A stretch of 26,413 nucleotides of DNA, from IMG/VR virus record IMGVR_UViG_2737471842_000005. One strand, 5' to 3'. Below, one piece after another: positions 1,251 through 1,897 of this stretch (the stretch's first letter is position 1; each line of letters begins with the position of its first letter). This DNA is from a virus (Duplodnaviria > Heunggongvirae > Uroviricota > Caudoviricetes). The position numbers and the translations under genes are program-made. A model generated the notes under the pieces. That model was not told the DNA's origin, made no database searches, and worked only from the letters and a program-made list of their open reading frames with translations.

Positions 1251-1550
1251 TTATTTTTTCCATGGGGTATATTTTGAAATAACTGGTGATATATAACGTT
1301 TTGCAGCGTAGAACAAAACGCCAACTGATATTACAGAAAAAACTTCATGTAAGGCAGAAGGGTGATCTGACTCATAATAAGTACCGATGATAGCTACCGA
1401 AGCAACTGCTGAAATATCAAATAGCACTTTTTCGTATTTTAATAGTAATGATTTCATTATGTACCTGTGAATGATATTTGTTATAATCGTAGTCATATGT
1501 AATAAATGTAATTTATGAATGTGACATTTTACTCTGATAATTCCTGACAT
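1251..1550 (-). CDS. small membrane protein, two predicted TM helices (start uncertain: 1550 or internal Met at 1457)
   Basis: Hydrophobic stretches VLFDISAVASVAIIGTYY and VFSVISVGVLFYAA; overlaps the 3' end of the upstream - strand gene by 22 nt. Confidence 0.35.
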   Translation of the reverse strand: MSGIIRVKCHIHKLHLLHMTTIITNIIHRYIMKSLLLKYEKVLFDISAVASVAIIGTYYESDHPSALHEVFSVISVGVLFYAAKRYISPVISKYTPWKK

Positions 1551-1897
1551 CTAGTTTCTACATAGTGGATAATTGCTTTTTCAATCTTTTTACGATTAAT
1601 TTTAGCTACTTTATTATTGTCATCAACAGGAAACATATGTACTGGGAGGGGGCTTGTGTTTTGTACAATTGTACTACAATTTATTCCTTCGTTTAATACT
1701 TCGACCATATTCTTATCGAAAACCGAGGCTAATTCATCTGCTAAACGGTAAGCGGTATAATGTGCCTCCTTACCAGAGGCTTTACCATTTATGATTAAAT
1801 AATTTTCAATCGGATCTACCATATTAAGAAGCTCACGTGATGCTGCATTAGCATTGCAAGAAGCAGCTAAGATAGAGGCAATGATTAATTTTTTCAT
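1529..1897 (-). CDS. secreted protein / possible lipoprotein (122 aa)
   Basis: N-terminus MKKLIIASILAASCNANA is a classic signal peptide with a loose lipobox (LAASC); strong AGGAG RBS 8 nt upstream of the ATG on the - strand. Confidence 0.55.
   Translation of the reverse strand: MKKLIIASILAASCNANAASRELLNMVDPIENYLIINGKASGKEAHYTAYRLADELASVFDKNMVEVLNEGINCSTIVQNTSPLPVHMFPVDDNNKVAKINRKKIEKAIIHYVETRCQELSE

What the first reader, a model, noticed from the sequence alone, without database searches (positions are those of the whole stretch)
1251..1897. Signal-peptide/lipoprotein gene overlapping a small 2-TM membrane protein gene on the - strand
A 122-aa secreted protein with a lipobox-like LAASC, a strong RBS, and a 22-nt overlap with a small membrane protein forms a compact pair on the strand opposite the early genes. 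Phage lipoproteins in this kind of position often act in superinfection exclusion or receptor masking. This is inference from layout and signal features only.
Basis: inference. Interest (0 to 1): 0.4.

Follow-up and report, generated by a model that had tools for sequence, protein, structure and literature searches.

The report
Two small envelope-protein cargo genes
Two real but uncharacterised small genes, one for an exported periplasmic protein and one for a tiny membrane hairpin, sit in the anti-phage cargo slot of a decaying E. coli prophage; they probably help block incoming phages, but the proposed lipoprotein and gene overlap are not supported.

Summary
Both genes exist, but the description needs correcting.

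**Gene A** (1529-1897, minus strand, 122 aa) has an AGGAG ribosome-binding site and a clear Sec signal peptide.
- It belongs to a small, unannotated family of about 120-135 aa.
- Family members have an Ala-x-Ala signal-peptidase I site and two conserved mature cysteines (C74, C117).
- 11 of 16 representatives have no cysteine in the signal peptide, so "lipoprotein" is doubtful.
- The predicted fold is a helical bundle with no informative structural relative.
- Relatives lie in small-gene arrays of large lytic phages of the subfamily Stephanstirmvirinae (phi92 gp239, Citrobacter phage Tr1, Klebsiella phages).

**Gene B** most likely starts at 1457, not 1550.
- It is 68 aa (1251-1457) and lies 71 nt downstream of gene A, so there is no 22-nt overlap.
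- It is a two-helix hydrophobic hairpin of family phrog_30003, found only in Phapecoctavirus among the phage records searched.

**Are they a pair?** The two families come from different phage genera and are adjacent only in this E. coli element.

**Context.** Both lie in a swappable cassette (1008-4493) that also carries an HNH nuclease and a minimal CBASS system. Sister elements carry an Old-family exclusion nuclease at the same site.

**Best guess (about 0.35):** two independent envelope-level superinfection-exclusion factors, analogous but not homologous to T4 Spackle and Imm. Function is untested. Interest is modest.

The parts
1529..1897 (-). Gene A: 122-aa exported protein (signal peptide plus a helical domain of about 103 aa with two conserved Cys); stop codon included
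   Evidence: ORF and translation. Homologues in Stephanstirmvirinae phages and a few enterobacterial islands. PGAP calls the same CDS.
1905..1909 (-). Shine-Dalgarno AGGAG, 7 nt upstream of gene A's ATG
   Evidence: Read directly from the sequence.
1844..1897 (-). Signal peptide of gene A (residues 1-18, MKKLIIASILAASCNANA; cleavage predicted after A18 or A19). It contains Cys14 (codon 1858-1856), the doubtful lipobox.
   Evidence: Pattern and hydropathy script. Family alignment with a near-invariant Ala at position -1 and no Cys in 11 of 16 members. SignalP annotation of phi92 gp239.
1532..1843 (-). Mature domain of gene A: predicted helical bundle (helices 18-36, 43-69, 74-81, 84-88, 96-121). 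C74 (codon 1678-1676) is invariant and C117 (codon 1549-1547) nearly invariant; they probably form a disulfide.
   Evidence: AlphaFold2 model with pLDDT 80 and pTM 0.71. Conservation.
1458..1528 (-). 71-nt spacer between genes A and B. It includes AGGT (1466-1463) 5 nt before gene B's ATG. No terminator-like hairpin was found, so the two genes are probably co-transcribed.
   Evidence: Sequence. Terminator scan found nothing here.
1251..1457 (-). Gene B: 68-aa two-helix hydrophobic hairpin protein of family phrog_30003 (true start at Met32 of the 99-aa ORF). Hydrophobic cores are at about residues 11-28 (nt 1374-1427) and 39-52 (nt 1302-1343); the loop is acidic (ESDHPSALHE) and both termini are basic.
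   Evidence: phrog_30003 match at E 8e-28. tblastn hits in 63 phage records. Alignment. Hydropathy. AlphaFold2 helices 3-29 and 33-63. Gene calls.
2076..2103 (-). Sigma-70-like promoter candidate (TTGCCA, 16 nt, TAAAAT; 10 of 12 matches) about 180 nt upstream of gene A, in the divergent region shared with the HNH gene
   Evidence: Consensus scan. This is a pattern match only; the number of sites found is not above the number in shuffled sequence.
1173..1205 (.). 33-nt palindrome (15-bp stem, 3-nt loop) 46 nt downstream of gene B's stop. It may be a terminator or a protein-binding site, and it lacks a U-tract.
   Evidence: unique in the window, 0 expected by chance.
1008..4493 (.). Variable cargo cassette holding genes B and A, the HNH gene (2164-2913, +), the SMODS cyclase (3106-3882, -) and the SLATT effector (3879-4406, -). 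It is flanked by conserved backbone.
   Evidence: blastn breakpoints against sister elements. Annotations. Pfam and PADLOC matches.

Best explanation
**Setting (shown).** Genes A and B are two small envelope-protein cargo genes. They sit in the variable anti-phage slot of a low-GC, decaying prophage in the E. coli chromosome.

**Gene A**
- Shown: it has a Sec-type signal peptide and belongs to a family with a near-invariant signal-peptidase I site.
- Predicted: the mature protein of about 103 residues is a soluble periplasmic helical bundle. It is probably locked by a C74-C117 disulfide.
- It is probably not a lipoprotein.

**Gene B**
- Predicted: it inserts into the inner membrane as an N-in/C-in helical hairpin with a short acidic periplasmic loop.

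**Expression.** Both genes are probably transcribed together from a promoter in the divergent region upstream of gene A. However, the two families occur separately in different phage genera, so they most likely act independently.

**Function (inferred, not shown).**
- In their lytic-phage relatives the genes lie in small-gene arrays; for gene B's family, depositors predicted host-type promoters there.
- The inference is that, expressed from the prophage, they protect the cell against incoming phages at the envelope.
- Gene A would bind or inhibit a periplasm-exposed part of an infecting tail, such as a tail-tip peptidoglycan hydrolase.
- Gene B would interfere with formation of the DNA-translocation channel in the inner membrane.
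- This is the logic of T4 Spackle and Imm, without homology to either.
For: **The genes and their products**
- The genes are real, and gene B's start and the spacing are corrected.
- Export of gene A's product is supported by the signal peptide being conserved across the family. The Ala at position -1 is nearly invariant, C74 is invariant and C117 nearly so. phi92 gp239 carries a SignalP annotation.
- Gene A's product is predicted to be a helical bundle (pLDDT 80).
- Gene B's product is predicted to be a two-helix hairpin. Its termini are basic and its loop acidic.

**Phage context of the relatives**
- Family A lies in small-gene arrays of Stephanstirmvirinae phages.
- In phAPEC8, family B lies next to depositor-predicted host-type promoters and about 113 kb from the endolysin.

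**The slot is an anti-phage hotspot**
- This cassette also carries a CBASS cyclase and a 2TM effector (PADLOC E 8.8e-110 and 6.8e-67).
- Sister elements carry an Old-family nuclease at exactly the same site (PADLOC Old E 1.5e-74).
- E. coli 55989 has SMODS-SLATT with different neighbours.

**Conservation of the cargo**
- In 9 other assemblies the cassette has 0-4 mismatches in 3.4 kb, and genes A, B, HNH, SMODS and SLATT are intact.
- In the same assemblies the adjacent backbone has 60-135 mismatches in 4.5 kb, and different strains carry different frameshifts in the terminase and portal genes.

**Precedent**
- T4 Spackle is an early, signal-peptide-bearing, disulfide-bonded helical-bundle periplasmic protein that inhibits the tail lysozyme (PMC7677548).
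Against: - No functional data exist for either family. PHROGs lists phrog_30003 and phrog_27054 with no function, and I found no paper on them.
- Neither protein matches any PADLOC model or any Pfam family.
- Location in a defence hotspot is guilt by association.
- Gene B's hydrophobic segments are short. The best Kyte-Doolittle 19-residue window scores 1.37-1.53, below the usual 1.6 cutoff, so membrane insertion is predicted rather than certain.
- The loci were chosen because they encode exactly the same protein A. The identity of the gene A segment itself is therefore uninformative.
Confidence: 0.35

Rival explanations
1. One reading: gene A encodes a lipoprotein. It would be lipidated at Cys14 and sorted to the outer membrane (residue +2 is Asn). 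There it would mask a receptor or otherwise block adsorption or injection, like T5 Llp or the phi80/N15 Cor protein. Gene B would be an overlapping, translationally coupled partner.
For: - Cys14 fits the relaxed PROSITE-type lipobox pattern.
- The Klebsiella-phage clade of the family (P0003-P0005) has a strict lipobox, L[VI]SC, at positions 10-13.
- The gene sits in a defence hotspot.
Against: - 11 of 16 family representatives lack any Cys in the signal peptide. All keep an Ala-x-Ala-type site about 5 residues further on.
- The window's AASC fails the strict lipobox. Only 6 uncharged residues precede the 4 lipobox positions, which is the minimum the pattern allows.
- From memory of PROSITE PDOC00013, the rule wants the Cys at positions 15-35; here it is at 14.
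- The overlap and the coupling are not real.
- There is no homology to Llp, Cor, Bor or TraT families (Pfam: no hits).
Confidence: 0.12
2. The genes control lysis. Gene B would be a class II holin or pinholin-like protein (one depositor labelled a homologue 'bifunctional anti-holin/holin'). Gene A would be a periplasmic regulator or antiholin, in the manner of T4 RI.
For: - Gene B's product is 68 aa with two hydrophobic helices and a basic C-terminal tail.
- A homologue in LR597654 carries that label.
- The element's endolysin-like gene (24487-24894, -) has no obvious holin beside it.
Against: - No Pfam holin family matches gene B's product or two homologues, even at E up to 10.
- There is no dual-start motif.
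- The gene lies 23 kb from the endolysin here and about 113 kb from it in phAPEC8. In phAPEC8 it sits among genes next to depositor-predicted host-type promoters.
- The pair lies in a cassette that sister elements with the same backbone lack entirely, so it cannot be the element's essential holin.
Confidence: 0.08
3. The genes are cargo with an envelope function unrelated to phage exclusion, or with no current function. Examples would be a host-takeover or host-physiology modifier inherited from lytic phages, a stress or colonisation factor, or neutral passengers that travel with the neighbouring CBASS and HNH modules.
For: - There is no match to any defence model.
- The family A gene in Scandinavium and Enterobacter is a lone gene beside an integrase remnant and an insertion sequence, with no defence neighbours.
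- The near-identity of the cassette across strains could reflect recent spread rather than selection.
Against: - Both reading frames are intact in every copy examined, while neighbouring virion genes accumulate frameshifts.
- Both families are maintained across many lytic phage genomes.
- The slot's other occupants are known exclusion or defence genes.
Confidence: 0.3
4. The pair is an accessory part of the neighbouring SMODS-SLATT (CBASS) system.
For: - The genes are on the same strand and in the same cassette as SMODS-SLATT.
Against: - They are separated from SMODS-SLATT by the opposite-strand HNH gene.
- SMODS-SLATT occurs without the pair in E. coli 55989, and the same stretch matches more than 100 other E. 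coli genomes at about 77% identity.
- The pair region is found in only 10 of 5426 complete genomes.
Confidence: 0.03

Closest known systems
Phage T4 Spackle (Sp, gp61.3), a periplasmic inhibitor of the gp5 tail lysozyme
   Same: - Both are small proteins with a cleavable signal peptide.
- Both have an all-helical bundle with a single disulfide (observed for Spackle, predicted for protein A).
- Spackle is an early gene product of a large lytic myovirus; relatives of gene A lie in small-gene arrays of such phages (PMC7677548).
   Different: - No sequence or fold similarity was detected.
- The mature domain is about 103 aa here, against 75 aa in Spackle.
- Here the gene is carried by a prophage cassette.
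- The target and activity are unknown.
Phage T4 Imm and HK97 gp15, small inner-membrane superinfection-exclusion proteins that block DNA translocation by binding the tape-measure protein
   Same: - All are very small, helical, membrane-embedded, phage-encoded proteins (bioRxiv 10.64898/2026.03.06.709160).
- In phAPEC8, the gene B homologue lies beside depositor-predicted host-type promoters.
   Different: - There is no Pfam or sequence relationship.
- Protein B has two short helices, whereas Imm has four helical segments.
- No interaction or phenotype data exist.
Phage phi92 gp239 and phrog_27054 (family A), and phAPEC8 gp261 and phrog_30003 (family B): uncharacterised genes of Stephanstirmvirinae
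   Same: - These are true homologues. Family A was found with a profile search (E 1e-5 to 1e-11) and shares its signal peptide and both Cys residues.
- Family B proteins are 53-65% identical over the full length.
   Different: - In the lytic phages, gene A sits in a conserved triplet with two cytoplasmic-looking small proteins and no partner like gene B.
- Family B occurs only in Phapecoctavirus among the phage records searched. phAPEC8 has no family A homologue in the 78 kb checked.
- The two genes are adjacent only in this E. coli element.
Cargo ('moron') and defence hotspots of prophages, such as the P2 old/tin locus or lambda bor
   Same: - Opposite-strand, self-contained small genes lie in a slot whose content differs between otherwise near-identical elements. 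The slot holds Old-family and CBASS genes.
   Different: - The backbone is different: a low-GC, lambda-gpA-type terminase element with a large serine recombinase, integrated at rimO or yegD.
- The slot lies directly upstream of the small-terminase-like gene.

Membership tests
Bacterial lipoproteins (Lgt/LspA substrates) | N-terminal signal peptide with a basic n-region and a hydrophobic core | tested here: met
   MKK followed by LIIASILAAS.
Bacterial lipoproteins (Lgt/LspA substrates) | Lipobox [LVI][ASTVI][GAS]C, with an adequate hydrophobic stretch before it | tested here: not met
   AASC fails the strict pattern. The relaxed PROSITE-type pattern is met only at the minimum spacing. Cys14 is one residue short of the 15-35 position rule (PROSITE PDOC00013, recalled from memory).
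Bacterial lipoproteins (Lgt/LspA substrates) | The lipidated Cys is conserved among homologues | tested here: not met
   11 of 16 family representatives have no Cys in the signal peptide. The Ala at position -1 of a signal-peptidase I site is nearly invariant.
Bacterial lipoproteins (Lgt/LspA substrates) | Lipid modification and globomycin-sensitive processing | not testable with these tools
   This needs labelling or inhibitor experiments. No SignalP or LipoP was available.
T4 Spackle family | Sequence or fold homology to Spackle | tested here: not met
T4 Spackle family | Exported small helical bundle with one disulfide | tested here: met
   By prediction only: the signal peptide, the helical model and two conserved Cys residues.
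T4 Spackle family | Inhibits a tail-associated lysozyme and confers exclusion | not testable with these tools
   This requires biochemistry and plating assays.
T4 Imm / HK97 gp15-type membrane exclusion proteins | Homology to a known Imm or gp15 family | tested here: not met
   No Pfam family matched at E up to 10 for protein B or two homologues. The only PHROG match is the function-unknown phrog_30003.
T4 Imm / HK97 gp15-type membrane exclusion proteins | Small integral inner-membrane protein | tested here: inconclusive
   The model has two helices, 3-29 and 33-63. The charge distribution fits N-in/C-in. However, the hydrophobic cores are short and fall below the classical Kyte-Doolittle threshold.
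Class II holins / pinholins | Two transmembrane domains, a charged C-terminus and membership of a holin family | tested here: not met
   The architecture is compatible, but no Pfam holin family matched and there is no dual-start motif.
Class II holins / pinholins | Part of the lysis cassette, and a core gene of the element | tested here: not met
   The gene is 23 kb from the endolysin here and about 113 kb from it in phAPEC8, where it lies among genes next to depositor-predicted host-type promoters. It is absent from sister elements.
CBASS operon component | Co-occurs and is co-oriented with the cyclase and effector genes | tested here: not met
   SMODS-SLATT occurs without the pair. An opposite-strand gene intervenes. 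There is no PADLOC hit.
phrog_30003 (gene B) and the phi92 gp239-like family (gene A) | Significant full-length profile match | tested here: met
   Gene B: E 8e-28 over profile positions 5-65 of 68. Gene A: the family was recovered by profile search of 1.8 billion proteins, with full-length hits at E down to 4e-11 beyond the seed sequences, and the Cys residues and signal peptide are shared.

The most novel reading that the evidence does not exclude
Genes A and B are two previously unrecognised superinfection-exclusion factors that Stephanstirmvirinae phages (phi92- and phAPEC8-like) use against their own kind. A domesticated E. coli prophage has captured one of each and combined them into a Spackle-plus-Imm-like, two-layer (periplasm plus inner membrane) barrier. 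It sits next to CBASS and would protect the host against this clinically used group of lytic phages.
Probability: 0.25. Interest if true: 0.55.

Novelty: new member of a known kind. Interest (0 to 1): 0.3.

Why it matters
If the exclusion reading is right, it would give a function to two protein families with no assigned function that are widespread in phi92- and phAPEC8-like phages. These phages are often proposed for therapy and biocontrol.

It would also show that prophages recycle the self-exclusion genes of lytic phages as host defences. That would help predict resistance of E. coli strains to those phages.

If it is wrong, these are simply two more uncharacterised prophage cargo genes.

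Either way, the practical corrections stand:
- Gene A probably encodes a periplasmic protein, not a lipoprotein.
- Gene B encodes 68 aa and does not overlap gene A.
- The pairing is local to this element rather than a conserved operon.

Tried and rejected
**Searches that found nothing**
- Megablast of window 1-6000 against phage records: no match.
- Pfam, NCBIfam and PADLOC for both proteins: nothing usable. The one NCBIfam hit (bacteriocin WGxF, E 0.029) falls in the untranslated N-terminal extension of the long ORF and was discarded.
- Word-indexed homology search with gene A alone: only its own cluster. Progress came from two weak tblastn hits, which led to a profile and then an exhaustive profile search.

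**Structure comparisons of the gene A model**
- The afdb50 library was unavailable.

**Conserved-partner hypothesis: rejected**
- There is no neighbour like gene B next to family A in phi92, Tr1, 05F01, a metagenomic phage contig, or the Scandinavium and Enterobacter islands.
- There is no family A member in 78 kb of phAPEC8; the two weak hits matched only through the signal peptide.

**Other checks**
- Holin idea: rejected.
- Rfam scan of 1-5000: nothing.
- The PGAP 'tRNA-OTHER' near the element was not confirmed by ARAGORN.
- Stop-codon recoding as the reason for the split terminase and portal genes: rejected. The breaks are frameshifts that differ between strains.
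Full report
**1. What is at the coordinates**

The minus strand carries an ORF at 1529-1897. It encodes 122 aa beginning MKKLIIASILAASCNANAAS. AGGAG lies at 1909-1905, 7 nt upstream of the ATG. A second minus-strand ORF runs from 1550 to 1251 (99 aa) and overlaps the first by 22 nt when read from its first ATG.

At about 31% GC, stop codons should occur at roughly 0.078 per codon. A 122-codon open frame is therefore very unlikely by chance, about 5e-5 per start by my calculation. Both products also have homologues, so both are genes.

**2. Gene B is shorter and does not overlap gene A**

- The 68-position profile phrog_30003 matches residues 38-98 of the 99-aa ORF at profile positions 5-65 (E 8e-28).
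- The phage homologues compared are 68-70 aa and align from Met32.
- PGAP and the gene calls in eight other assemblies all give a 68-aa product lying 71 nt after gene A's stop.
- AGGT lies 5 nt before the ATG at 1457. Nothing comparable precedes 1550.

Gene B is therefore 1251-1457, and the '22-nt overlap' is an artefact of taking the longest ORF. No terminator-like hairpin lies in the 71-nt spacer, so co-transcription with gene A is likely but not shown.

**3. Gene A's family**

- On its own, protein A retrieved only its own cluster: E. coli, 99% identical, annotated 'hypothetical protein'.
- Two weak tblastn hits were full-length proteins of Klebsiella phage 05F01 and Citrobacter phage Tr1, both in the subfamily Stephanstirmvirinae.
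- A three-sequence profile found five clusters.
- An exhaustive HMMER search of 1.8 billion representative proteins with a five-sequence profile (A2) found 17 hits at E < 1e-3. About 13 of these were full-length proteins of 126-136 aa.
- Members include phi92 gp239 and its Justusliebigvirus relatives and Klebsiella phages KP2025 and KP13-26.
- Other members are metagenomic phage contigs and lone genes next to an integrase remnant in Scandinavium and Enterobacter chromosomes.
- Five of 16 members fall in phrog_27054, which has no assigned function.

**4. Signal peptide yes, lipoprotein probably not**

In the 16-sequence alignment:
- Every member starts with M[KR]x followed by a hydrophobic core.
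- An Ala at the -1 position of an Ala-x-Ala-type site, at residues 18-21, is nearly invariant.
- C74 is invariant and C117 nearly invariant. Every representative but one (P0010) has exactly two Cys after the predicted cleavage site.
- Eleven members have no Cys anywhere in the signal peptide.

The phi92 depositors annotated gp239 with a 20-residue SignalP signal peptide.

The window's Cys14 sits in AASC. This fails the strict lipobox and satisfies the relaxed PROSITE-type pattern only at the minimum spacing. The Klebsiella-phage clade has L[VI]SC at 10-13, but with an even shorter hydrophobic stretch before it.

The most economical reading is cleavage by signal peptidase I after A18 or A19. 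That would release a soluble periplasmic protein of about 103 aa with one disulfide. Lipidation at Cys14 is not excluded; I put it at roughly 0.2-0.25.

**5. Fold**

AlphaFold2 with the 5-sequence alignment gives a confident helical bundle (mean pLDDT 80, pTM 0.71). The helices are 18-36, 43-69, 74-81, 84-88 and 96-121.

The comparisons gave no informative relative:
- Foldseek against PDB: best E 1.3.
- BFVD: only one significant match, a 133-aa unnamed viral protein (27% identity), presumably a family member.
- Family profile against all PDB sequences: nothing.

**6. Gene B**

The alignment of five homologues shows:
- a basic N-terminus (K7, E9, K10);
- a hydrophobic helix at about residues 11-28;
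- an invariant acidic loop motif (P33-S34, H37-E38);
- a second hydrophobic helix at about residues 39-52;
- an invariant basic tail (K53 R54 Y55 .. S57 P58 .. K62 .. W66 K67).

A single-sequence AlphaFold2 model gives two helices, 3-29 and 33-63 (pLDDT 75). The charge distribution fits an N-in/C-in hairpin.

The hydrophobic cores are short, and the Kyte-Doolittle 19-residue maxima are 1.37-1.53. Membrane insertion is therefore likely but only predicted.

All 63 phage records with a homologue are genomes of roughly 130-160 kb. Those with a genus assignment in the records examined are Phapecoctavirus. In phAPEC8 the gene (gp261) sits at 319-525, just after a depositor-predicted host-type promoter. 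It lies among many small genes and about 113 kb from the endolysin.

One depositor labelled a homologue 'bifunctional anti-holin/holin'. No Pfam holin family matches at E up to 10.

**7. Not a conserved pair**

- In phi92, Tr1 and a metagenomic phage contig, family A sits in a conserved triplet. The triplet is a 60-aa 'ARYRD..GF' protein, then A, then a protein of about 95 aa, with no hydrophobic partner. 05F01 also has no hydrophobic partner annotated beside its family A gene.
- phAPEC8 carries family B but no family A member in the 78 kb examined, including the terminal small-gene arrays at both genome ends. The two weak hits matched only through the signal peptide.
- The families thus come from different genera. 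They are adjacent only in this E. coli element, where the arrangement is fixed. The exact protein A is indexed in 329 blocks of assemblies, and all eight contexts shown are identical.
- The pair region occurs in 10 of 5426 complete E. coli genomes.

**8. Genomic setting**

The window is part of a low-GC (about 31-42%) prophage-like element. It is integrated beside rimO, and in relatives at yegD, by a large serine recombinase. It carries lambda-gpA-type terminase, portal, capsid, tail and endolysin genes.

Comparison with sister elements places the pair inside a 3.5-kb replaceable cassette, 1008-4493. The cassette lies between conserved backbone and directly upstream of the small-terminase-like gene. 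Its content differs between elements:
- Here it holds B-A (-), an HNH protein (+), and a SMODS cyclase with a SLATT 2TM effector (-). The last two form a minimal CBASS (Pfam; PADLOC E 8.8e-110 and 6.8e-67).
- Three sister elements instead carry a single minus-strand Old-family nuclease (PADLOC Old E 1.5e-74).
- E. coli 55989 has SMODS-SLATT with different neighbours.

The slot therefore behaves as a defence/cargo hotspot.

In nine other assemblies the cassette shows 0-4 mismatches in 3.4 kb, and all its genes are intact. In the same assemblies the adjacent 4.5 kb of backbone shows 60-135 mismatches. Different strains also carry different single-base frameshifts in the terminase and portal genes. 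The virion module is decaying while the cargo is kept or was recently swept through. One caveat: these loci were selected for an identical protein A.

**9. Mechanism**

*Shown or strongly predicted*
- Gene A encodes an exported helical periplasmic protein with two conserved Cys.
- Gene B encodes a small two-helix hydrophobic protein.
- Both are cargo genes on the strand opposite the backbone, in a hotspot.
- Both have relatives in small-gene arrays of lytic phages.

*Inferred*
- They act at the envelope against incoming phages, each on its own.
- This follows the precedent of T4 Spackle. Spackle is an early, signal-peptide-bearing, disulfide-bonded helical bundle in the periplasm that inhibits the gp5 tail lysozyme (PMC7677548).
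- I give this about 0.35.

*Rivals*
- Envelope or host-physiology cargo unrelated to exclusion, or passengers: 0.30.
- Lysis control: 0.08.
- CBASS accessory: 0.03.

The remainder is 'something else'.

**10. Comparison and novelty**

Neither protein belongs to the Spackle, Imm, Llp/Cor/Bor or holin families by any test run here. Both belong to uncharacterised phage families: the phi92 gp239-like family (phrog_27054) and phrog_30003. I found no paper that addresses them.

I class this as a new, uncharacterised member of a known kind of feature, namely prophage cargo genes for small envelope proteins in a defence hotspot. Interest is modest unless the exclusion phenotype is demonstrated.

Noticed in passing
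window 3106-4406 (-): A SMODS nucleotidyltransferase and a SLATT 2TM effector form a minimal CBASS-type system (PADLOC cyclase E 8.8e-110, 2TM effector E 6.8e-67). The same two genes match more than 100 other E. coli genomes at about 77% identity; in E. coli 55989, the one context examined, they lie next to a related terminase.
   Followed up: partly
window 1008-4493; L005 10008-12576, L006 and L007 8141-10709: A replaceable cargo cassette lies directly upstream of the small-terminase-like gene. Sister elements carry a single Old-family nuclease (PADLOC Old E 1.5e-74) in its place, so this is a defence hotspot in an undescribed low-GC E. coli prophage family.
   Followed up: partly
window 2164-2913 (+): In this 249-aa protein only the last ~70-100 residues match HNH nuclease models. 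The N-terminal ~140 residues match nothing. A weak PADLOC hit to a type IV methyl-directed restriction enzyme suggests a possible modification-dependent nuclease.
   Followed up: no
window 4992-8990 (indels at about 5041, 5592, 7508/7511 and 8861): The terminase gpA, portal and capsid reading frames are split. Different strains carry different single-base frameshifts, so the virion module is decaying rather than recoded. The cargo cassette is almost invariant (0-4 mismatches in 3.4 kb, against 60-135 in 4.5 kb of backbone).
   Followed up: partly
window 1173-1205: A 33-nt near-perfect palindrome (15-bp stem, 3-nt loop) lies 46 nt downstream of gene B. It is unique in the window, AT-rich and has no U-tract. 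It could be a terminator, an operator or a recombination site.
   Followed up: partly
window 24158-24894: An endolysin-like 135-aa gene stands alone on the minus strand. It lies next to a plus-strand DUF2730 protein with one transmembrane segment followed by a heptad-like (apparent coiled-coil) stretch. No obvious holin or spanin pair lies beside them.
   Followed up: no
L005 8885-8953 (about 50 nt upstream of the window's start in strain EC28): PGAP annotates a 'tRNA-OTHER' here. ARAGORN finds no tRNA in L005, L002 or the window.
   Followed up: yes
L013 2735-3677; L004 2306-3232; L012 1163-2102: Stephanstirmvirinae-type phages share a conserved three-gene block: a 60-aa 'ARYRD..GF' protein, the secreted family A protein, and a protein of about 95 aa with a 'KGYY..AYH' motif. 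None has an assigned function.
   Followed up: no
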